Source of the DNA: a virus
Lineage: Duplodnaviria > Heunggongvirae > Uroviricota > Caudoviricetes
Direction: 5' to 3' (one strand)
DNA: 18,126 bases
IMG/VR virus record: IMGVR_UViG_2671180699_000003
The notes under the pieces are model-generated. The model was not told where the DNA came from, did no database searches, and saw only the letters and a list, made by a program, of their open reading frames with translations. Position numbers and translations under genes: made by a program. Positions 835-18,126 of the stretch are shown here, piece by piece (the stretch's first letter is position 1; every line of letters begins with the position of its first letter).

Positions 835-908
835 GCGGGCGTAGTTCAATGGTAGAACGAGAGCTTCCCAAGCTCTATACGAGGGTTCGATTCCCTTCGC
901 CCGCTCCA
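835..908 (+). tRNA. glyU: tRNA-Gly (anticodon CCC)
   Basis: 74-nt sequence GCGGGCG...CGCCCGCTCCA with a 7-bp acceptor stem, D-arm GTTCAATGGTAGAAC, anticodon loop TTCCCAA (CCC), T-arm GGGTTCGATTCCC and encoded 3' CCA. Confidence 0.95.
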
Positions 909-1363: not shown

Positions 1364-2416
1364 TTATTTCCCCACCAGCTCGTTTATCTCTTTCACTGTC
1401 TGGTTAAACCGCTCTGACTCAAGCTCAACACCTAAGGCCCGACGCCCCAGCGCCATTGCTGCTTTTATTGTGGAACCGGATCCCATAAAAAAATCAGCAA
1501 CCAGATCACCAGGTCGACTACTGGCATTGATTATTTGCCTGAGCATATCCGCCGGTTTCTCACACGGATGTTTACCCGGGTAGAACTGAACGGGTTTATG
1601 CATCCAGACATCGGTATAAGGCACGGAGACTGATACGGAGAAATAGCGCCGGAGAGATTTAAACTCATCCAGCAATTCAGAATATTTGCGATTCAGTGAA
1701 TCATAAGATGCCACCAGCTGGTGGTGTGGTTGTTCCAGTTGTTGTTCCTGAAACTTCTCTGCCGCTATACGGGAAAACAGTGCCTGTAACTTCCGATAGT
1801 CAGCCTCATTCGGCAACTGCCACTGACTGGCACCAAACCAGTGGGAAACCATATTTTTCTTACCTGTGGCTTCGGCAATTTGTTTTGCCGTTATACCCAG
1901 TTCGGCACGAGCATCCCTGAAATACGATATCAGCGGTGCCATTATGTGCTGTTTGAGTTCCCTTTCTTTTGCCGCATAGCCGTCACTTTTGCCGCGATAT
2001 GGCCCCTGGTAATGTTCAGCAAACAGAACGCGCTCTGTGGCAGGAAAATATGCGCGCAGACTTTCTTTATTACACCCATTCCAACGTCCGGACGGCTTCG
2101 CCCAGATGATATGGTTAAGCACGTTGAAACGTTCACGCATCATGATCTCAATATCAGATGCCAGGCGATGCCCACAGAACAGGTAAAGGCTTCCGGCAGG
2201 TTTTAACACCCGCCAGAACTGGGCCAGACAGTGGTCCAGCCACTTAAGGTAATCTTCGTCCCCTTTCCACTGATTGTCCCAGCCGTTGGGTTTCACCTTG
2301 AAGTACGGCGGATCGGTAACAATCAGGTCAATGGAATCATCAGGCAGGGACTGAATAAAATGCAGGCAATCAGCGTTGATTAAATCAGCACTGTTTATTT
2401 TTACAGTATTTTTCAT
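1364..2416 (-). CDS. DNA methyltransferase, beta-class amino-MTase (N6-adenine or N4-cytosine), 350 aa
   Basis: ATG start. N-terminal motif IV DLIVTDPPY and C-terminal motif I FFMGSGST (order IV...I is beta-class). No restriction endonuclease nearby, so it looks like an orphan phage MTase. Confidence 0.8.
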   Translation of the reverse strand: MKNTVKINSADLINADCLHFIQSLPDDSIDLIVTDPPYFKVKPNGWDNQWKGDEDYLKWLDHCLAQFWRVLKPAGSLYLFCGHRLASDIEIMMRERFNVLNHIIWAKPSGRWNGCNKESLRAYFPATERVLFAEHYQGPYRGKSDGYAAKERELKQHIMAPLISYFRDARAELGITAKQIAEATGKKNMVSHWFGASQWQLPNEADYRKLQALFSRIAAEKFQEQQLEQPHHQLVASYDSLNRKYSELLDEFKSLRRYFSVSVSVPYTDVWMHKPVQFYPGKHPCEKPADMLRQIINASSRPGDLVADFFMGSGSTIKAAMALGRRALGVELESERFNQTVKEINELVGK

Positions 2417-4128: not shown

Positions 4129-5124
4129 TCAGGCCAGCACGCCTATTGCCAGCGCACGATCGATAAAACGAAATATCAGCTCCAGCTGGGAGCCATACTT
4201 CTCTTCAAATGCCACGGTATCCGCATGCAGCTCGTCGTGATGCTTTCTGCACAAAGGCAACACAAAGAGGTCATGCGCTTTTGTACCCATTCCACCCTGA
4301 CCGTGGCCTATCAGGTGGTGGGGATCATCAGCAGGCTTTCCACAACATGCACACGGCTGTGTCTTAACCCAGCGCGTGTACTTTTCATTAACCCAGCGGC
4401 GGCGTTTTGGGCGTAACATAAAAGACTCCGGCGACTCCGGATCCACTTTCAGCGCCAGCACCTTTTTCGCTTTATCCTGGATGATGCTGGTGGCAGGAAC
4501 CGAAGGCACAAGGTCACTCTCCCGGGTGACAGACGGCACAACAGGTTTCGGTAATCTCAGCGCCTTACGGGCTGCGCTTTCAGGTAAGGCATCCGCCAGG
4601 TCATTACGAATCAGCCACCAGCACAGTTCCGGCATTGTCACGGCATGGTTATCATCAAAACCGAGATCCCGACGGACTACAGACAACACCCAGCGGGCAC
4701 AGTTATCCGTTGCCATTGATTCCAGCCGTTCCGTGAACTGATCGCGCAGCTGGTTATCGCAGTGCCAGCACAGACGGATTGCGCCCGGAGCGTGTCGCAT
4801 TGTGGTCATGTTCTCGCTGTGCCAGTCGGAATGAGGCCACTGGCAGCCTTTTTCACGAAGTAACCAGCTTTCAAGACATTCCACGCCACCAGCACGACGG
4901 ATCACTGCCTCATTGCGGAACACGGCCCGAACGGCAGGATCATCCGCCAGCGGTTGTGATACCGCCGGAACGGCACCACTGGCGAAAGATGAATAACGTT
5001 CCGGCTCAGGCTCCAGCAGGACACGCCCCTGCATAAACAGGGGCATCAGCTCTGAACCTGGCCTGAACAATACGATCCCCATACGCGGGGCAATTTCAGG
5101 GGTCAGTAGTGCTCTCACGGTCAC
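4129..5124 (-). CDS. DUF968-like nin-region protein with C-terminal HNH-like Cys/His motif, 331 aa
   Basis: C-terminal CACCGKPADDPHHLIGHGQGGMGTKAHDLFVLPLCRKHHDELH. GTG start. Sits between the KilA-N gene and Q. Confidence 0.5.
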   Translation of the reverse strand: MTVRALLTPEIAPRMGIVLFRPGSELMPLFMQGRVLLEPEPERYSSFASGAVPAVSQPLADDPAVRAVFRNEAVIRRAGGVECLESWLLREKGCQWPHSDWHSENMTTMRHAPGAIRLCWHCDNQLRDQFTERLESMATDNCARWVLSVVRRDLGFDDNHAVTMPELCWWLIRNDLADALPESAARKALRLPKPVVPSVTRESDLVPSVPATSIIQDKAKKVLALKVDPESPESFMLRPKRRRWVNEKYTRWVKTQPCACCGKPADDPHHLIGHGQGGMGTKAHDLFVLPLCRKHHDELHADTVAFEEKYGSQLELIFRFIDRALAIGVLA

Positions 5125-5125
5125 C

Positions 5126-5935
5126 TCAATGAACGGTATCGAGCAGCTTTAACAGCTCAGGGAATCGGGATTCGAAGAAATGCGGCTGCGTCTCACGCGG
5201 ATTTGCGGGACTGGTGATGTTCTTGCCGAACATGCAGCCTTTCGCCGTCAGCGACCAGAATTTTTTGATGTTGTTAATCCCGGTACGGCTGTATCGTTCG
5301 CGCTGCTCGACGATCCCCAGCTTCACCATCTGGTGATATGCCTGATTAGCCGTCAGGCGGATACCATACTGCTTCAGCAGTGCACTCAGCGACAGCGTCG
5401 GGCGGCTTGAGCCATCAGGCGCGTCAGCAGGTGCATCAATGGCATAGCGCGGTGCCAGATTCGGTAAGCCAACAGCCTCCTGGAGTTTCTGACAGGCACC
5501 AAGCACTGAAGAGTTAGACAGATTTAACTCCCGGCGCATAAAGTCCAGCAGGATCACGCCAGCCTGCATCTTGTCAGCAGCCTGTCCGGATAACTTTTCC
5601 GGCGCGCTGGTTACCATATCGAAAGTACGGATCACCTTCAGATGGAATGACGGGCTGATCCACATTGCATAGGCATACACCAGTTCCTTACAGACATACG
5701 TTCCCCGTTCATTTCCCCCATGAATCACACTCACCGGGTCAACACCCAAATTCTGGGTGTTGGTTAATTCATGAACAAGCTCAACAGTTTGTTGGCTGGA
5801 AAGAAACTTTCCTGGCTCCTTGGTTCTGGCATTTGCACCAGATGCTACTGCTGCGCGATGCAGATCGTTCAGGCTGTAACGCCCATAAGCATCACGACGA
5901 ACTTCAATACCATCAATGACCATCAGATTATTCAT
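5126..5935 (-). CDS. KilA-N domain protein (antirepressor-like), 269 aa
   Basis: N-terminal KilA-N-like region (VIDGIEVRRDAYGRYSLNDLHRAA...). GAGGAG SD 9 nt upstream of the ATG. Confidence 0.6.
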   Translation of the reverse strand: MNNLMVIDGIEVRRDAYGRYSLNDLHRAAVASGANARTKEPGKFLSSQQTVELVHELTNTQNLGVDPVSVIHGGNERGTYVCKELVYAYAMWISPSFHLKVIRTFDMVTSAPEKLSGQAADKMQAGVILLDFMRRELNLSNSSVLGACQKLQEAVGLPNLAPRYAIDAPADAPDGSSRPTLSLSALLKQYGIRLTANQAYHQMVKLGIVEQRERYSRTGINNIKKFWSLTAKGCMFGKNITSPANPRETQPHFFESRFPELLKLLDTVH

Positions 5936-6344: not shown

Positions 6345-6667
6345 ACTTTCAGGCCCCTCTCATGTAACCAGTGGGCTGCACGCAACCTGGCGTTCTCCTC
6401 ACCGGCAAGCAGTGCGCGGATGATACCGACCGCCTCGCTGTCGTCGTCCTTCACCGCGGTATGAAGCGTGATGCCCCGGGCCACGCCACGCTTTATCGTG
6501 ATGACGCCTTTTTTCTCCAGTGCGCGAAGATGCTCCACCGCTGCATTCACTGAACGGTATCCCAGCATGGTTGCCACCTCCTGATTGGTTGGCGGGAAGC
6601 CACGTTCTTTCTGATAAGAAATCAGCATATCCAGCACCTGCTGCTGGCATTGAGTTAACGTCGTCAT
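6341..6667 (-). CDS. LexA N-terminal DNA-binding domain protein (no S24 peptidase domain), 108 aa
   Basis: QQQVLDMLISYQKERGFPPTNQEVATMLGYRSVNAAVEHLRALEKKGVITI closely parallels the LexA winged-helix N-terminus. ATGA overlap with rusA. Confidence 0.65.
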   Translation of the reverse strand: MTTLTQCQQQVLDMLISYQKERGFPPTNQEVATMLGYRSVNAAVEHLRALEKKGVITIKRGVARGITLHTAVKDDDSEAVGIIRALLAGEENARLRAAHWLHERGLKV

Positions 6668-7317
6668 GCCGCCATCTCCCTGACCAGTTTTTCTGCCTGC
6701 TGGCGAACCTGCGCCAGAAAGGCCTCACCACATGCCTCAAGTTCATCGCGCCCGATGTAGCTGATTGCCGGTCCCTTCCAGGTCTTGTCGAAAACAGCAA
6801 TAGCACCAGCGAAGAAAGCGCCTGTCGGCACCTGCTTCTCATCCTTCGGGATAAACCAGGCAGGCAGTTCAAAACCAATACGCCCGCGAATAAAAGCAAT
6901 ATGATCTGCATCTTCCGGCCACCACACTTCGCTGGTGGCAGCTTTGATCAGGAAAACATAGCGCCCGCCTTTATCACGCATGGCACTGGCATGCTTCATG
7001 ATGTAACGCATGCCGGTGATGTATTGCCCCTCATGCTGACTGGCGCGGCTGTATGGGGGATTACCAAAGGCAGCACCTTTAAGCTCCGCAAGGCGTTCTG
7101 ACCAGTCATGCGCCAGCGCGTTGTCTTCCGCCGTGTAATACGCAGCACATTTGGCGTTATCACCGTCAGTGAACAGATCCAGAACAAACGGGCCAAACAG
7201 GGTGTTAATTCCCCAGAAAATGTTGTCCGGCGTGCGCCACTGATCGCCCACTTCCTTCAGTTCATGGGCTGGTTTGTTCCGCAGTTCCGCCAGCGCCTGG
7301 CAATATTTATTACTCAT
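6664..7317 (-). CDS. phage Dam-like N6-adenine DNA methyltransferase, 217 aa
   Basis: NPPY catalytic motif (FGNPPYS). Start set at ATG 7317 (MSNKYCQ...), which overlaps the upstream stop as TAATG, rather than the GTG at 7350. Confidence 0.7.
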   Translation of the reverse strand: MSNKYCQALAELRNKPAHELKEVGDQWRTPDNIFWGINTLFGPFVLDLFTDGDNAKCAAYYTAEDNALAHDWSERLAELKGAAFGNPPYSRASQHEGQYITGMRYIMKHASAMRDKGGRYVFLIKAATSEVWWPEDADHIAFIRGRIGFELPAWFIPKDEKQVPTGAFFAGAIAVFDKTWKGPAISYIGRDELEACGEAFLAQVRQQAEKLVREMAA

Positions 7318-7805
7318 TAAGCCCCCACGTAATTCCCTGAGAGATACCACTCTTCACCTGATGCAGCCCGCTTACTGCTTTTCCGTAAACACCGTTCACG
7401 ACGCGCCAGAAAATTGTTTCGTTCTGGCTGGGAGTGGCTTTCACGGAATGCCGCCATCCACACCGTTGCAGCACGACGGTATAAGCCCCTCGACTCCAGT
7501 TCTTCAGCCTGGCGGGTCAGGCACAAAATCACCCGGGGGTCGTTAGTGCCGACATAGAACTTGCGCACAGGTCTGGTTTCACGAACTGGTTGTGGTTCCG
7601 GCTCCTGCGCTCTCTCAGTCAGGCGCGAGAAATGTCTGCGTGTATCTCCTTCACAACGGTGAGCCACACGCCCACTCTGACGTAACTTGCTTGCTGACTG
7701 CAGAACGCGCTGCCGTGAGTAACCTGCAAAAGCATCCGCAATGTCTCCGGAAGTACAGCCCGGATGGGCTTCAATGAATTTCTGAACTTCATTCAAAATA
7801 CTCAT
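7317..7805 (-). CDS. PerC-family transcriptional regulator-like protein, 162 aa
   Basis: C-terminal LESRGLYRRAATVWMAAF resembles the PerC/Pch signature (GLWRRAA..W). ATG at 7805 has a GGGGTGA SD; the ORF-track start at 7811 is a GTG. Confidence 0.5.
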   Translation of the reverse strand: MSILNEVQKFIEAHPGCTSGDIADAFAGYSRQRVLQSASKLRQSGRVAHRCEGDTRRHFSRLTERAQEPEPQPVRETRPVRKFYVGTNDPRVILCLTRQAEELESRGLYRRAATVWMAAFRESHSQPERNNFLARRERCLRKSSKRAASGEEWYLSGNYVGA

Positions 7806-8800: not shown

Positions 8801-9021
8801 GCCGCACCTCCGAGATGCTTCATGTTTTTTCCGGAGCGAAAGGCTATAAGCGGCATACTGACGCGGTAATTACGGCCCAGCGGTTCACAAATCACCTTCT
8901 GACATTCACGGTCAACCAGGCTAACACGTAGAACATGCCCTGCAGGCGTGGTGTACCACTGACCGGGGCGAGGACAACGGAAAGTCTGATTGGTAAATCG
9001 TTTGAAAATATTCCGGATCAT
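8797..9021 (-). CDS. hypothetical protein, 74 aa
   Basis: AAGGGGG SD 5 nt upstream; ATGA overlaps with both neighbours. Confidence 0.4.
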   Translation of the reverse strand: MIRNIFKRFTNQTFRCPRPGQWYTTPAGHVLRVSLVDRECQKVICEPLGRNYRVSMPLIAFRSGKNMKHLGGAA

Positions 9022-10166
9022 TTGCGCCCCCTTACCTCTGAAGAGTTCAGCGACGAATGAATAAGACGGGCAAGAAATGCCGCATCGTTAATTCGGTCAT
9101 ACAGACTTACAGCCAGAGGTGATTCAGCTTTTTCCAGCATGGGATAAAGCTGCTGCAACCAGACCTGATGAATTGATGAAATGTAGGAATAGAGAACGCT
9201 GGCGTTATGTGCAACGTCGCTCGGTACAGCGGGCTTTGAAAGCTGTTTCTCCATCTGGTTAAAGGCATTGATGTATGCCTCTTTGAACTGGGCAGCACGT
9301 TTACCCGTGAAACCCATAGCAAGAAACGCAAAGCCGTCGCGGGTTATTTGATAGCAAGGTAGTTTGCGGCCTGTGCAATCGGTGTAATCACTCACCGAAA
9401 AATTGCGGGCAGTGAATGATGCGGAACATTCAAGCGTGCGGATCTTTTTCAGTACATCGTCATGACGTTTGGAGAAGAAGTTGGCAACAGCCAGGGATGA
9501 AGTAACAGCCTGACCATCAACGATGGCAATTTCAGGTTGAGTGAGGGTTGGGATCGTAGCCATGATGGCAGTCTCCGATAACAGTGAATTACCTTCACCA
9601 CCGGAAACGCCAATTTCGCTGGTGGTGAACTGAACGGGGTTGGCGTAACCGGCGTTATCGGAAACCGGCGCACCTTTCGGTGCCCCCGTCCAGCCCACCA
9701 TAATTTGGGTGTGCACAGACGCAGACGATAAAAAAGACGCTGGCGCGTCATATATCGCCGATAACATTTCCAGGACGCCAATCCCGACACCCGCTTTATA
9801 AGGTGCCTGAACAGTGTAACGTCCCGGAATGGCAGAATCAATGTGCTGGTGGTCCTTCACACTCAACAAAATCACGCCTGAATTTCCACAAAGGACTAAA
9901 GCACTCATGCGGGTAGTCTTTGCGAAGATAGATAACGCGCTGTGTTTCTGGCTCCCAACGAATAACATGGACATAAAGCCCTCTTCCGTCACGAAACCAG
10001 CGGTTAAGTTCCTGCACAACTCGCCCCCCACAGTCAGGTAAAGTTCTCTGTGGTTACTTACAGCCAGGTGATTTGGTAATCTGCATTCATGCCGTAACAA
10101 CAGGTGTTCAGCGACGCTGACCACCAGCTGTTGCGACAAACGGTTATTTGCCGTTAAACTGTTCAT
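9018..10166 (-). CDS. Rha-family phage regulatory protein with a ~200-aa N-terminal extension (382 aa; alternative internal start at 9563 gives 181 aa)
   Basis: Rha-like motifs QAVTSSLAVANFFSKRHDDVLKKIR and ITRDGFAFLAMGFTGKRAAQFKEAYINAF begin at residue ~202. The ATG at 9563 has a GGAGA SD, but the frame stays open upstream to an ATG at 10166 that overlaps the upstream stop (ATGA). Confidence 0.55.
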   Translation of the reverse strand: MNSLTANNRLSQQLVVSVAEHLLLRHECRLPNHLAVSNHRELYLTVGGELCRNLTAGFVTEEGFMSMLFVGSQKHSALSIFAKTTRMSALVLCGNSGVILLSVKDHQHIDSAIPGRYTVQAPYKAGVGIGVLEMLSAIYDAPASFLSSASVHTQIMVGWTGAPKGAPVSDNAGYANPVQFTTSEIGVSGGEGNSLLSETAIMATIPTLTQPEIAIVDGQAVTSSLAVANFFSKRHDDVLKKIRTLECSASFTARNFSVSDYTDCTGRKLPCYQITRDGFAFLAMGFTGKRAAQFKEAYINAFNQMEKQLSKPAVPSDVAHNASVLYSYISSIHQVWLQQLYPMLEKAESPLAVSLYDRINDAAFLARLIHSSLNSSEVRGRK

Positions 10167-12837: not shown

Positions 12838-13662
12838 ATGTCTCATAACTTAGACGCAACCGCAATTAATCAAATCCATGCCCTTATTTCTGCTCAGGGT
12901 GTTAATGAAATCATCAGTAAGATTGGTGCCGATGCTGTGGCATTGCCTGAGAATTTCCGCATTCATGATCTGGAAAAATTTAATTTAAATCGTTTCCGTT
13001 TCCGTGGTGCGCTTTCCACTGCCAGCATCGATGACTTTACCCGTTATTCTAAAGATCTTGCAGATGAAGGCACCCGCTGCTTTATCGATGCCGATAATAT
13101 GCGTGCCGTCAGTGTGCTTAACCTGGGTACTATTGATGAGCCAGGTCACGCAGATAACACTGCCACTCTCAAACTGAAAAAGACAGCACCGTTCTCTGCT
13201 CTGTTGTCTGTTAATGGCGAGCGTAACTCCCAGAAGTCACTGGCAGAATGGATTGAAGACTGGGCCGACTACCTTGTGGGCTTTGATGCTAATGGTGACA
13301 CCATTCAGGCAACCAAAGCGGCTGCGGCGATCCGTAAAATCACAATTGAAGCGAACCAGACCGCTGATTTTGAAGATAATGACTTCAGCGGCAAACGCTC
13401 CCTGATGGAGTCTGTCGAAGCGAAGACCAAAGACATTATGCCAGTGGCATTTGAATTTAAATGCGTTCCGTTTGAAGGCCTGAAAGAACGTCCATTTAAA
13501 TTACGCCTCAGCATTATCACTGGCGATCGTCCTGTACTGGTTCTGCGCATTATTCAGCTGGAAGCGGTGCAGGAAGAAATGGCTAACGAATTTCGTGATC
13601 TGCTTGTTGAGAAATTCAAAGACAGCAAAGTAGAAACCTTTATTGGTACTTTCACCGCCTGA
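12838..13662 (+). CDS. yfdQ: YfdQ-like protein (DUF2303), 274 aa
   Basis: 274 aa, the same length as K-12 YfdQ; gene order yfdP-yfdQ-yfdR; AGTGAGGA SD. Confidence 0.65.
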
Positions 13663-13696: not shown

Positions 13697-13789
13697 ATGG
13701 AAACGTAATTAACTCAATAATCACCGAATGGTGAGGGCTTCCTTTTACCAGAATTCAGCGCGGTGCAGTGCATATACGTGGAGAACAAA

Positions 13790-14326
13790 ATGTCATTTAT
13801 TAAAACTTTTTCCGGGAAGCATTTTTATTATGACAAGATAAATAAAGACGACATCGTTATTAACGATATCGCGGTTTCCCTTTCAAATATCTGTCGCTTT
13901 GCAGGACATCTTTCACACTTCTACAGCGTCGCCCAACATGCGGTGCTTTGCAGCCAGCTGGTACCGCAGGAATTTGCTTTTGAAGCGTTAATGCATGATG
14001 CAACAGAAGCATATTGTCAGGACATCCCCGCACCACTGAAACGCCTTCTTCCTGACTATAAACGGATGGAAGAAAAAATAGACGCCGTAATCCGTGAGAA
14101 ATACGGGTTACCTCCTGTTATGAGCACGCCAGTGAAATATGCCGATCTCATTATGCTGGCAACCGAACGCCGCGATCTCGGGCTTGATGATGGTTCTTTC
14201 TGGCCTGTACTGGAAGGTATCCCGGCGACAGAGATGTTCAAAGTTATTCCACTGTCACCAGGCCATGCCTACGGGATGTTTATGGAACGTTTTAACGAGT
14301 TATCGGGGTTACGCAAATGCGCATGA
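13790..14326 (+). CDS. yfdR: YfdR-like HD-domain phosphohydrolase, 178 aa
   Basis: ATG at 13790 with a GGAGA SD. His/Asp residues spaced as in an HD domain (AGHLSH...HDATEAY...D). 178 aa, the same length as K-12 YfdR. Confidence 0.65.
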   Translation: MSFIKTFSGKHFYYDKINKDDIVINDIAVSLSNICRFAGHLSHFYSVAQHAVLCSQLVPQEFAFEALMHDATEAYCQDIPAPLKRLLPDYKRMEEKIDAVIREKYGLPPVMSTPVKYADLIMLATERRDLGLDDGSFWPVLEGIPATEMFKVIPLSPGHAYGMFMERFNELSGLRKCA

Positions 14327-16559: not shown

Positions 16560-16595
16560 TTTTCCCGGGTGCAGCCGGTTTTGATGGAGAAAATT

Positions 16596-16877
16596 ATGAA
16601 CACCTTGTTTTTACTGATGGCTGAATTCAATACCCCTAACATTGAACTCTCAGCAGTTAGCCAAAAGTACTTTGGCATGAGTCCAGCCACGGCAGAAGCA
16701 AAAGCAAACGCTTGTAAGTTGCCCGTTCCAACATATCGCATCGGCACATCACAAAAAGCAAAACGTTGCATCAATATTCAGGATCTTGCGGAATACATAG
16801 ACAAAAGACGAGAAGAAGGACGTATCGAGTGGGAACAGGTCAGAACAAGCAAACAGAAGGGCAAAGAACATCACTAA
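16596..16877 (+). CDS. PrtN/AlpA-like small DNA-binding protein (excisionase-like), 93 aa
   Basis: ATG at 16596 with a GGAGA SD. Product MNTLFLLMAEFNTPNIELSAVSQKYFGMS... Last gene of the plus-strand operon, directly before a terminator. Confidence 0.45.
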   Translation: MNTLFLLMAEFNTPNIELSAVSQKYFGMSPATAEAKANACKLPVPTYRIGTSQKAKRCINIQDLAEYIDKRREEGRIEWEQVRTSKQKGKEHH

Positions 16878-16906
16878 ATAAAAAACCCGCCTAAAGGCGG
16901 GTTTTC
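16878..16906. terminator. bidirectional rho-independent terminator
   Basis: A-run, stem CCCGCC / loop TAAA / stem GGCGGG, then TTTT. Lies between the converging plus-strand operon and the minus-strand module. Confidence 0.6.
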
Positions 16907-16924
16907 AAAAAGCACCAGCTATGA

Positions 16925-17098
16925 TCATGCTGCTTTGCGACGACGAAGCTTACCCTGCTGCTCTTTACCAGAGACAGTAGCGTGAGTGAACGCATTAGGA
17001 GCAGCCTTCATCAGAACTTCAACAGCAGCACCCATACCTGCGAATGCTTTCATTGTGTCGAACTTAACCTGTGGCTTGGTTGCTTTTTGATCTTCCAT
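16925..17098 (-). CDS. small ORF, 57 aa
   Basis: ATG at 17098 with an AGGAG SD 7 nt upstream. Product MEDQKATKPQVKFDTMKAFAGMGAAVEVLMKAAPNAFTHATVSGKEQQGKLRRRKAA. Below the ORF-track length cutoff. Confidence 0.4.
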   Translation of the reverse strand: MEDQKATKPQVKFDTMKAFAGMGAAVEVLMKAAPNAFTHATVSGKEQQGKLRRRKAA

Positions 17099-17137
17099 AG
17101 AAAACTCCTGAAGTTATACCGAAACAATTCCTGTTGT

Positions 17138-17557
17138 TTACTCATCATCAATAGATGATACGCAATATTTATTTTTAAATTTAAGGTTCTTTGGCGTAAC
17201 TTCATCAGAGATATCAAAACCGTCCAGAATTCTATTGAATGTAGCTTCTGGCATATCATCATGAACAGAAATCTCACCCGATCGCTGCTTTCTAACCATG
17301 TTATCCACTCGCCAAATTATAGCTTCAGCGTAAACAACATAACTTGGATGCTTGATAAAGCGATGATCACCAGAATTCAAGACGCAAGACGGATCGTGGG
17401 GGACACCATCCTTGATACTAGAAATATTAACAACTAAAACACAATAACAATCGTTAACGGGGTAATAAACAGGATCATTACAAATCACATGAAGATGATT
17501 GCATGGCCCAGTTGGGGCAAGCACAGTTCCTTTCCTGTATGGCTGATAATCCGTCAT
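17138..17557 (-). CDS. candidate toxin partner of the Panacea protein (possible MazF/PemK-like fold), 139 aa
   Basis: ATG overlaps the upstream stop (ATGA). Hydrophobic beta-strand pattern HLHVICNDP...CVLVVNISS...SYVVYAEAIIWRVD loosely resembles Kid/PemK; this is a weak by-eye similarity. Confidence 0.45.
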   Translation of the reverse strand: MTDYQPYRKGTVLAPTGPCNHLHVICNDPVYYPVNDCYCVLVVNISSIKDGVPHDPSCVLNSGDHRFIKHPSYVVYAEAIIWRVDNMVRKQRSGEISVHDDMPEATFNRILDGFDISDEVTPKNLKFKNKYCVSSIDDE

Positions 17558-18126
17558 GATAATTGCAAAGAAAATTCCTTAAGTTTCTGAGATTCTTCCA
17601 TTTTGCCAATTATGCGATTAGCCTCATCCTCGCTTTTACCCTCACTGATCAGCATTTCTTTCAGGTCTATAGGCTTACGAGAATTGCCAGGATCGTGCCA
17701 CTCTGGACAAACGCTTTCTAGATGCGTCATATTTGCGAGATCAAATCGGTTCATATGCCCATACCGAGAATAGATTTCATCTAAAATCCGGATATCTGCA
17801 CGACTCAATTCATCAAAGACCTCGTCTGCATCCATTTCCCTCGGATCTGAACGCAACGATACATTATGCCCGTTCGTCTCTATCAAGTTGTACCAGTAGT
17901 CACCAATGCCTTCAGCCTTACCGCGAATCAAGTTCAGCGTATTCGACATGACTGGTCCAAATTTCATAGAGTAAAGGCTATCTTCGCCGATCATCCTGCC
18001 ATGCTTCAAAATCGACTGGCGGTTAGACAGATAGAGCAACTTCATCAATTTCAGATATGCCATGCGCCCACCTCGCTTAAGAAGTAGGTATGCAGCCATT
18101 TGAGCTACTTTTTCTTCGCAAAACAT
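17554..18126 (-). CDS. Panacea-domain (DUF4065, SocA/GepA-like) protein, putative antitoxin, 190 aa; start at the window edge
   Basis: Motif RMAYLKLMKLLYLSNRQ...MKFGPVMSNTLNLI matches the DUF4065 core. The ATG is the final three bases of the window, so a longer N-terminus cannot be excluded. Confidence 0.6.
   Translation of the reverse strand: MFCEEKVAQMAAYLLLKRGGRMAYLKLMKLLYLSNRQSILKHGRMIGEDSLYSMKFGPVMSNTLNLIRGKAEGIGDYWYNLIETNGHNVSLRSDPREMDADEVFDELSRADIRILDEIYSRYGHMNRFDLANMTHLESVCPEWHDPGNSRKPIDLKEMLISEGKSEDEANRIIGKMEESQKLKEFSLQLS

What the first reader, a model, noticed from the sequence alone, without database searches (positions are those of the whole stretch)
17138..18126. Panacea-domain antitoxin plus an uncharacterised 139-aa toxin candidate at the prophage edge
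The 190-aa protein carries the DUF4065/Panacea core (LKLMKLLYL...FGPVMS). Its stop overlaps the start of a 139-aa ORF by 4 nt (ATGA), the classic arrangement of a type II toxin-antitoxin or abortive-infection pair. Panacea domains are known to neutralise many unrelated toxin domains (PanA-PanT systems). The partner here is not a toxin I recognise with certainty; I see only a loose MazF/PemK-like strand pattern. The pair sits on the minus strand, separated from the phage early-left operon by a bidirectional terminator, in the accessory slot near the presumed int/xis end. It may be an undescribed PanT-type toxin or defence module.
Basis: partly seen in the sequence, partly recalled or inferred. 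Interest (0 to 1): 0.72.

Follow-up and report, generated by a model that had tools for sequence, protein, structure and literature searches.

The report
Prophage PanA–PanT toxin–antitoxin pair
The two overlapping genes at the edge of this E. coli prophage are a real Panacea-type toxin–antitoxin pair, but the "unknown" toxin belongs to a MazF-shaped toxin family (PanT cluster T6) that already has a lab-validated member, so this is a new example of a known system rather than a new kind.

Summary
Window 17554..18126(-) encodes a complete 190-aa Panacea/DUF4065 protein (Pfam PF13274, 70.9 bits). Its stop overlaps, by ATGA, the start of a 139-aa ORF at 17138..17557(-).

It is not an undescribed toxin. 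It is 43% identical (E 6e-34) to the Pseudomonas moraviensis PanT. Its PanA is 43% identical (E 7e-49) to that system's PanA. Kurata et al. 2022 (PMC8832971) placed that pair in PanT cluster T6 and showed toxicity, neutralisation, complex formation and specific inhibition of protein synthesis.

All 29 related loci with readable upstream DNA have a PanA gene immediately upstream, and 18 of them show the same 4-nt overlap.

The cassette is a low-GC insert in the variable slot next to attP/int of a dusA-integrating lambdoid prophage. Homologous cassettes sit in other accessory slots of unrelated temperate phages.

Still open:
- the catalytic chemistry; a family-specific H21/D55/C58/H65 set replaces the canonical MazF Arg;
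- the RNA target;
- whether the pair excludes other phages or stabilises the prophage.

Verdict: new member of a known kind, modest interest.

The parts
17554..18126 (-). panA: 190-aa stand-alone Panacea (DUF4065) antitoxin. It has a conserved N-terminus (MFCEEKVAQMAAY), the GPV motif (F56-G57-P58-V59), a conserved TH..CxEWxDP motif, and a variable C-terminal tail of about 40 aa.
   Evidence: PF13274 at 70.9 bits. phrog_1281 at 2.6e-26. 43% identity, E 7e-49, to the Pseudomonas PanA whose N-terminus is the MIFSEQKVAQ of Kurata's corrected P. moraviensis PanA. Alignment of 29 PanAs. Complete ORF.
17138..17557 (-). panT: 139-aa MazF-fold toxin of PanT cluster T6. Near-invariant family residues are H21, L22, D55, C58, G63, H65, F67, S72, Y76, G113 and S117.
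17554..17557 (-). ATGA stop/start overlap: the panA TGA lies within the panT ATG context, suggesting translational coupling.
   Evidence: Sequence. The same 4-nt overlap occurs in 18 of 29 related loci and a 1-nt overlap in 2 more.
16925..17098 (-). orf57: a small co-directional ORF 39 nt downstream of panT, with an AGGAG upstream. It is probably co-transcribed but is not part of the cassette.
   Evidence: phrog_2741 at 8.4e-36. It is present in phage mEp460 without panAT.
16881..16906 (.). GC-rich hairpin between the convergent orf57/panAT transcript and the PrtN-like excisionase gene (16569..16877, +). The T-run has 6 T on the minus strand and only 4 T on the plus strand.
   Evidence: Terminator-like site at L001 8027..8002, which equals window 16906..16881. 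Sequence.

Best explanation
This is a type II PanA-PanT toxin-antitoxin cassette of the class that Kurata et al. 2022 numbered T6, carried as an accessory insert (moron) at the att/int end of a dusA-integrating lambdoid E. coli prophage.

PanT (139 aa) is a MazF-fold protein. By homology to the validated P. moraviensis member, it arrests growth by specifically blocking protein synthesis, most likely as a sequence-specific endoribonuclease. PanA (190 aa, stand-alone Panacea domain plus a C-terminal tail) is translated first. It is translationally coupled to PanT through the ATGA overlap and neutralises PanT by direct binding.

Shown here: domain identity, fold, homology of both partners to the validated pair, conserved operon architecture, purifying selection, and the mobile accessory-slot context.

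Inferred:
- RNase chemistry. Invariant H21 would take the place of the MazF catalytic Arg and S46/S47 the place of the catalytic Thr, with the D55/C58/H65 loop contributing.
- The biological role. The most likely role is lysogen-expressed abortive infection or exclusion of superinfecting phages, triggered when PanA is lost or displaced. Prophage stabilisation is the main alternative.
For: - PanA domain: PF13274 at 70.9 bits, with the GPV motif present.
- Homology to the validated pair: PanT is 43% identical over 120 aa, E 6e-34, to P. moraviensis SDU72800.1. PanA is 43% identical, E 7e-49, to the partner in the same 90% cluster, whose N-terminus is the 'IFSEQKVAQ' quoted by Kurata.
- Cluster membership: Kurata's T6 list holds Pantoea septica LMG 5345 (overlap -4) and 'Yersiniaceae bacterium 2016Iso4' (-1). 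These are the strains of my loci L014 and L013, which show the same overlaps.
- Literature on PanT Pse. mor.: toxic and neutralised, pulled down with PanA, neutralisation independent of ClpXP and Lon, and specific inhibition of 35S-Met incorporation (PMC8832971).
- Conserved architecture: 29 of 29 loci have PanA upstream. The partners in five diverse phages all hit PF13274.
- Constraint: dN is about 0.09 with synonymous sites saturated, measured against the 86% identical homologues.
- Mobile accessory context.
Against: - Nothing was measured for this E. coli pair. Eight of the 25 PanTs tested by Kurata et al. were not toxic in E. coli.
- There is no sequence-level match to MazF/PemK: Pfam at E<=1, PDB hmmsearch, and hhalign at probability below 1%.
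- The residue mapping onto the MazF active site comes from a non-significant alignment path.
- The canonical catalytic Arg is absent.
- RNA cleavage has not been demonstrated even for the P. moraviensis homologue.
- No defence-system model matches, and I found no phage assay.
Confidence: 0.78

Rival explanations
1. The molecular module is the same, but its selected role is addiction or stabilisation. Cells that lose or excise the prophage are poisoned by longer-lived PanT, so the cassette keeps the prophage in the lineage rather than defending against other phages.
For: The architecture is classic type II TA. The cassette sits at the very end of the element next to att/int. The Pseudomonas homologues are chromosomal and outside any prophage, flanked by yggX and metabolic genes ('NotPhage' in Kurata's table). 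A purely anti-phage role therefore need not apply.
Against: The same cassette turns up in lysogen-expressed accessory slots of unrelated temperate phages. One is the position directly after the cI-like repressor, the lambda rexAB slot, in Pantoea prophages. Others are in P2-like, Vinavirales and Helicobacter elements. That pattern is more typical of exclusion genes. Differential stability of PanA and PanT is unknown.
Confidence: 0.25
2. The pair is functionally inert in E. coli, as a decayed or host-mismatched module. The 139-aa protein would be non-toxic, like several PanTs tested by Kurata et al.
For: Eight of 25 tested PanTs were not toxic in E. coli, including an E. coli and a Salmonella phage pair from cluster T1.
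Against: Those non-toxic T1 proteins are unrelated to this one. Every near-invariant family residue is retained here. Both genes are under strong purifying selection. The full cassette is kept at 95% identity or more in 205 complete E. coli genomes. The validated T6 member was toxic in E. coli itself.
Confidence: 0.1
3. PanT is a CcdB-like gyrase poison, or another non-RNase binder, built on the shared MazF/CcdB barrel.
Against: All higher-ranked hits by two methods are MazF/Kid RNases. The homologous P. moraviensis toxin inhibited protein synthesis specifically, not thymidine incorporation.
Confidence: 0.04

Closest known systems
PanA-PanT of Pseudomonas moraviensis BS3668 (PanT cluster T6; WP_083354365.1 / WP_083201923.1), Kurata et al. 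2022 PNAS, PMC8832971
   Same: Both partners are homologous: PanT at 43% identity, E 6e-34, and PanA at 43%, E 7e-49. Gene order is antitoxin first with overlapping stop and start. PanA is stand-alone Panacea ('noNTD'). The toxin is predicted MazF-like. H21, D55, C58 and H65 are conserved in both.
   Different: The window pair is phage-borne, at the att end of an E. coli prophage, whereas the Pseudomonas pair is chromosomal between yggX and metabolic genes. The enterobacterial subfamily also conserves H23 and C26, which Pseudomonas lacks (C26 is Met there). The overlap is 4 nt here and 1 nt there. The E. coli pair has not been tested experimentally.
MazF/PemK/Kid endoribonuclease toxins (Pfam PF02452) with MazE/PemI antitoxins
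   Different: No sequence-model match. The beta1-beta2 hairpin is short instead of the long MazF S1-S2 loop. A 24-residue conserved loop (48-71) carries D55, C58 and H65. Two extra helices are present. An invariant His stands where the catalytic Arg is expected. The antitoxin is a Panacea protein, not an AbrB/RHH MazE.
SocA-SocB (Caulobacter, type VI TA)
   Same: The antitoxin carries the same Panacea domain (PF13274 is named after SocA).
   Different: The NCBIfam SocA equivalog scores 14.4 bits against a cutoff of 190. The toxin is unrelated to SocB. Kurata et al. found PanA neutralisation independent of ClpXP and Lon and based on direct binding.
Lambda rexAB and other lysogen-expressed exclusion genes in accessory slots of temperate phages
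   Same: The cassette occupies accessory slots that vary between related phages. In Pantoea prophages it sits exactly after the cI-like repressor. It has lower GC than its neighbours.
   Different: There is no sequence or structural relationship, and an exclusion phenotype has not been tested.

Membership tests
PanA (Panacea/DUF4065 antitoxin) | Pfam PF13274 match above the gathering score | tested here: met
   70.9 bits against a cutoff of 25.7, residues 27-137
PanA (Panacea/DUF4065 antitoxin) | Conserved GPV signature motif, reported as critical for neutralisation (PMC8832971 Discussion) | tested here: met
   KFGPVMS at residues 55-61. The motif is conserved in 29 aligned PanAs.
PanAT system (criteria of Kurata et al.) | [quoted passage not shown] | tested here: met
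   29 of 29 loci from Enterobacterales, Pseudomonas, Vibrio, methanotrophs, Beggiatoa-like bacteria and Helicobacter keep the pair. Flanking genes differ between loci.
PanAT system | Toxin inhibits growth, the antitoxin rescues, and the two form a complex | not testable with these tools
   Shown only for the P. moraviensis homologue.
PanT cluster T6 | Sequence homology to the cluster's validated member and to listed members | tested here: met
   E 6e-34 to the P. moraviensis protein. Loci from two strains listed in T6 were recovered with the window's profile.
MazF/PemK endoribonuclease (PF02452) | MazF/CcdB SH3-like barrel fold | tested here: met
MazF/PemK endoribonuclease (PF02452) | Match to the family's sequence model | tested here: not met
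   No PF02452 hit at E<=1. No MazF chain in PDB profile searches at E<=10. hhalign probability below 1%.
MazF/PemK endoribonuclease (PF02452) | Catalytic Arg and Thr/Ser pair (R25/T48 in B. subtilis MazF; from my own knowledge of the family) | tested here: inconclusive
   A non-significant hhalign path puts invariant H21 on R25, S46 on T48 and S72 on S73. The Arg is therefore absent and the Ser/Thr plausibly kept. No coordinates were available to check the geometry.
MazF/PemK endoribonuclease (PF02452) | Cognate MazE/PemI-type antitoxin | tested here: not met
   The partner is a Panacea protein.
SocAB type VI TA | SocA equivalog model above its cutoff | tested here: not met
   14.4 bits against 190.
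Catalogued anti-phage defence systems (PADLOC-DB v2) | Match of either protein to a defence-system model | tested here: not met
   No hit at E<=1 for any of the three proteins.

The most novel reading that the evidence does not exclude
T6 PanTs may not be canonical MazF-type RNases. The family has swapped the catalytic Arg for an invariant His and added a conserved loop carrying Asp55, Cys58 and His65. Together these could form a metal site or a Cys/His catalytic centre on the MazF scaffold, giving a different chemistry or a different target (for example a specific tRNA or rRNA site, or a non-RNA substrate). In temperate phages the cassette would act as a lysogen-expressed abortive-infection switch. 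In this prophage it could even be driven by the displaced host dusA promoter, with PanA as the sensor of an incoming phage.
Probability: 0.2. Interest if true: 0.55.

Novelty: new member of a known kind. Interest (0 to 1): 0.3.

Why it matters
It identifies two genes that RefSeq annotates as 'Panacea domain-containing protein' and 'hypothetical protein', the second with a truncated start. The full cassette is present in about 4% of complete E. coli genomes (205 of 5,426) and in several temperate phages.

The toxin family is large: 2,693 clusters at 50% identity in the profile search. It still has no Pfam, NCBIfam or PADLOC model.

Its conserved His/Asp/Cys/His set differs from the textbook MazF active site. 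The E. coli prophage copy is therefore a convenient native-host system for three open questions left by the PanAT papers:
- what these MazF-fold PanTs cleave and how;
- how a stand-alone Panacea domain neutralises them;
- what triggers release of the toxin.

Tried and rejected
1. Link to Kurata's cluster T1, whose E. coli MOD1 and Salmonella phage Emek pairs were tested as 'not toxic'. I fetched Emek and compared its toxin with the window protein and its family profile. There was no similarity, so those negative results do not apply here.

2. Sequence-level link to MazF. None was significant. Only the fold comparison links the families.

3. PanA:PanT complex model from a linker fusion. The neutralisation interface therefore stays unknown.

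4. Genomic context of the P. moraviensis protein itself. I used the representative of its 90% cluster instead.

5. The weak Pfam and NCBIfam hits for PanT (ICMT at E 0.05; DapC at E 0.002, far below cutoff) are short chance matches.

6. Promoter scan upstream of panA in the lysogen. It found 3 sites against 4.4 expected by chance, so it is not informative.

7. Rfam. There is no RNA family in 16800-18126, so nothing suggests a type I or type III RNA antitoxin.

Full report
**What is in the sequence.** The minus strand of window 17138-18126 holds two ORFs. The first is 17554..18126, 190 aa, whose ATG is the last base triplet of the window. The second is 17138..17557, 139 aa. The stop of the first and the start of the second share ATGA.

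The 190-aa protein matches Pfam PF13274 (SocA_Panacea, formerly DUF4065) at E 2.2e-19, 70.9 bits against a gathering score of 25.7, over residues 27-137. It carries the GPV motif. Although the window stops at its ATG, the protein is complete. In an identical E. coli lysogen (locus L001) the nearest in-frame stop is 81 nt upstream with no alternative start codon between. PGAP and two phage records call the same 190 aa.

For the second ORF, RefSeq (WP_014640052.1) starts at GTG 17524, giving 128 aa. However, the eleven residues upstream (MTxYxPYRKGT) are conserved in homologues down to 47% identity. The ATG at 17557, and with it the ATGA overlap, is therefore the real start.

**What the 139-aa protein is.** It has no significant hit in Pfam, NCBIfam or PADLOC. 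Its only family hit is an unannotated PHROG, phrog_19071 at 3.4e-31.

A word-indexed search found 62 clusters, all called 'hypothetical protein', in Enterobacterales, Vibrio and Shewanella. A full profile search found 2,693 clusters at 50% identity with E<=1e-3 and 919 with E<=1e-10. It is a large unnamed family.

At sequence level there is no detectable link.

**It is a member of a described and validated PanT class.** Kurata et al. 2022 (PMC8832971) surveyed Panacea-linked toxins and numbered 88 clusters. Their cluster T6 is annotated by HHpred as 'EndoA/PemK/MazF-family RNAses'. It contains the P. moraviensis BS3668 pair, recorded as a verified TA. Three lines tie the window pair to T6.

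1. T6 lists Pantoea septica LMG 5345 (antitoxin|toxin, overlap -4) and 'Yersiniaceae bacterium 2016Iso4' (-1). Scanning species genomes with the window protein's alignment recovered exactly these strains as L014 and L013, each with a PanA gene upstream and with those same overlaps.
2. The window PanT is 43% identical over 120 residues (E 6e-34) to a 132-aa P. moraviensis protein, SDU72800.1, found on a 6.09-Mb contig.
3. The PanA next to the representative of that Pseudomonas cluster begins ...IFSEQKVAQMAAY. This is the N-terminal extension 'MIFSEQKVAQ' that Kurata et al. added to the P. moraviensis PanA. It is 43% identical (E 7e-49) to the window PanA, which begins MFCEEKVAQMAAY.

I could not read WP_083201923.1 itself, so the identity of SDU72800.1 with it is inferred from organism, genome size, gene order and overlap.

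For that homologous pair the paper reports the following:
- toxicity in E. coli that PanA neutralises;
- neutralisation in strains lacking ClpXP and Lon;
- co-purification of PanA with tagged PanT;
- specific inhibition of 35S-methionine incorporation.

RNA cleavage was predicted there, not shown. The two 'not toxic' enterobacterial pairs in that paper (E. coli MOD1 and Salmonella phage Emek) belong to cluster T1. The Emek toxin shows no similarity to the window protein or its profile, and MOD1 was not compared directly.

**Conservation of the module.** In 29 loci with readable upstream DNA, a PanA homologue lies immediately upstream of the PanT homologue in every case. These comprise 22 species genomes, 6 phage or prophage records and the E. 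coli lysogen. Eighteen have a 4-nt overlap, two have a 1-nt overlap, and most of the rest have gaps of a few bases. The partners in five diverse phages all pass PF13274.

PanA and PanT identities to the window fall together across loci, as expected for co-evolving partners.

Against the 86-87% identical Kosakonia and Pluralibacter homologues, dN is about 0.09 for both genes. The proportion of synonymous differences exceeds 0.74, which is saturated. Both genes are therefore under strong purifying selection.

**Active-site reasoning (inference).** Across 128 family members at 25-50% identity to the window protein, the near-invariant residues are H21, L22, D55, C58, G63, H65, F67, S72, Y76, G113 and S117. 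S46 and S47 are always Ser, Thr or Cys. All are present in the window protein.

The model has a tight beta1-beta2 hairpin in place of the long MazF S1-S2 loop. It also has a 24-residue ordered loop (48-71) carrying D55, C58 and H65, and two extra helices.

A statistically non-significant hhalign path against a small MazF/Kid profile aligns H21 with the catalytic R25 of B. subtilis MazF, S46 with T48 and S72 with S73. The roles of R25 and T48 are from my own knowledge of the MazF literature.

I therefore propose MazF-like RNA transesterification with His replacing Arg, assisted by the D55/C58/H65 loop. A metal site or Cys/His chemistry is not excluded. I had no model coordinates to test the geometry.

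**Genomic setting.** The window is part of a lambdoid prophage. It carries a cI-like S24 repressor, a CII-like protein, Rha/Ash, DUF551, a 3'-5' exonuclease and a PrtN-like excisionase. In E. coli WP4-S18-ESBL-09 the prophage is integrated in dusA.

panA-panT are the last genes before the attachment site. Phage and lysogen sequences are identical for 263 nt upstream of the panA ATG and then diverge. In the free phage Lys8385Vzw the integrase follows.

In the lysogen, the displaced 5' fragment of host dusA points into panA. Host-promoter read-through into the cassette is therefore possible but untested.

Downstream, a 57-aa ORF (phrog_2741) follows after 39 nt. A GC-rich hairpin at 16881-16906 then separates this transcript from the convergent excisionase gene. 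Phage mEp460 has orf57 but carries an unrelated 177-aa gene in place of panAT. The slot is therefore variable.

The panT region has 37-40% GC against 47-51% in neighbouring genes.

The full cassette occurs at 95% identity or more in 205 of 5,426 complete E. coli genomes and in two sequenced phages.

Homologous cassettes sit in several other settings:
- next to int in Yersinia phage YeP1;
- at the genome end of a Vibrio Vinavirales element;
- near the portal gene of the P2-like Pseudomonas phage Sirocco;
- in a Helicobacter prophage;
- directly after the cI-like repressor, the lambda rexAB position, in Pantoea prophages.

In Pseudomonas the cassette is chromosomal, between yggX and metabolic genes.

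**Function.** The molecular reading is a type II TA with a MazF-fold translation inhibitor neutralised by direct PanA binding. It is well supported by homology to a tested pair.

The biological role is inferred. Recurrence in lysogen-expressed accessory slots of unrelated temperate phages favours exclusion or abortive infection. The Ernits et al. [quoted passage not shown] Neither protein matches a PADLOC model. I found no infection assay for this class. Prophage stabilisation is the main rival.

**Verdict.** The toxin is not new in kind. It is an untested E. coli prophage member of PanT cluster T6. The interest that remains lies in the non-canonical conserved residues, the unknown RNA target and trigger, and the annotation fixes (a family without a model, and a truncated RefSeq start).

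Noticed in passing
window 9618-9705 (-) and 9730-9806 (-): Rfam C4 antisense RNA (82.8 bits) and isrK Hfq-binding sRNA (61.5 bits) lie side by side. Both are inside the long ORF 9018..10166(-), which carries Phage_ASH and Phage_pRha domains. This looks like a P1/P7-style antirepressor control module in a lambdoid prophage.
   Followed up: no
window 835-908 (+): A phage-borne tRNA-Gly (anticodon CCC).
   Followed up: no
window 1364..2416 (-) and 6664..7350 (-): There are two DNA methyltransferase genes in the same prophage segment, one N6_N4_Mtase and one Dam-type. A DUF968/HNH gene lies at 4129..5124 and a KilA-N gene at 5126..5935.
   Followed up: no
window 17524-17557: RefSeq WP_014640052.1 starts panT at GTG 17524 (128 aa). 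Conservation of the upstream 11 residues in homologues shows that ATG 17557 (139 aa) is the true start. Many RefSeq entries of the Pseudomonas and Halomonas relatives are likewise 103-108 aa instead of 132-135 aa.
   Followed up: yes
L001 9248-9605 (outside the window, just beyond 18126): In the lysogen, the displaced 5' fragment of host dusA (MHGNSEMQKINQ...) is co-oriented with panA and ends 253 nt upstream of its ATG. The free phage carries its own surrogate dusA 5' end at the same place. A dusA-type promoter may therefore read into panAT in both states.
   Followed up: partly
L034 3415-3948 (phage mEp460) versus window 17138-18126: The slot between orf57 and int holds an unrelated 177-aa gene with no Pfam hit in mEp460. 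It is a variable accessory slot and could hold other exclusion genes.
   Followed up: partly
L039-L041 3429-4405 (Pantoea prophages): The homologous panAT cassette sits directly downstream of the cI-like HTH/S24 repressor gene and before the N-like gene, which is the lambda rexAB position.
   Followed up: partly
window 16925..17098 (-): This 57-aa ORF (phrog_2741, E 8.4e-36) has its own AGGAG and lies 39 nt after panT. It is conserved in phages that lack panAT. Its function is unknown.
   Followed up: partly
window 12838..13662 (+) and 13763..14326 (+): These are homologues of the CPS-53/KpLE1 genes yfdQ (DUF2303) and yfdR (a weak HD/YfbR-like 5'-deoxynucleotidase hit) in the early-left operon.
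   Followed up: no
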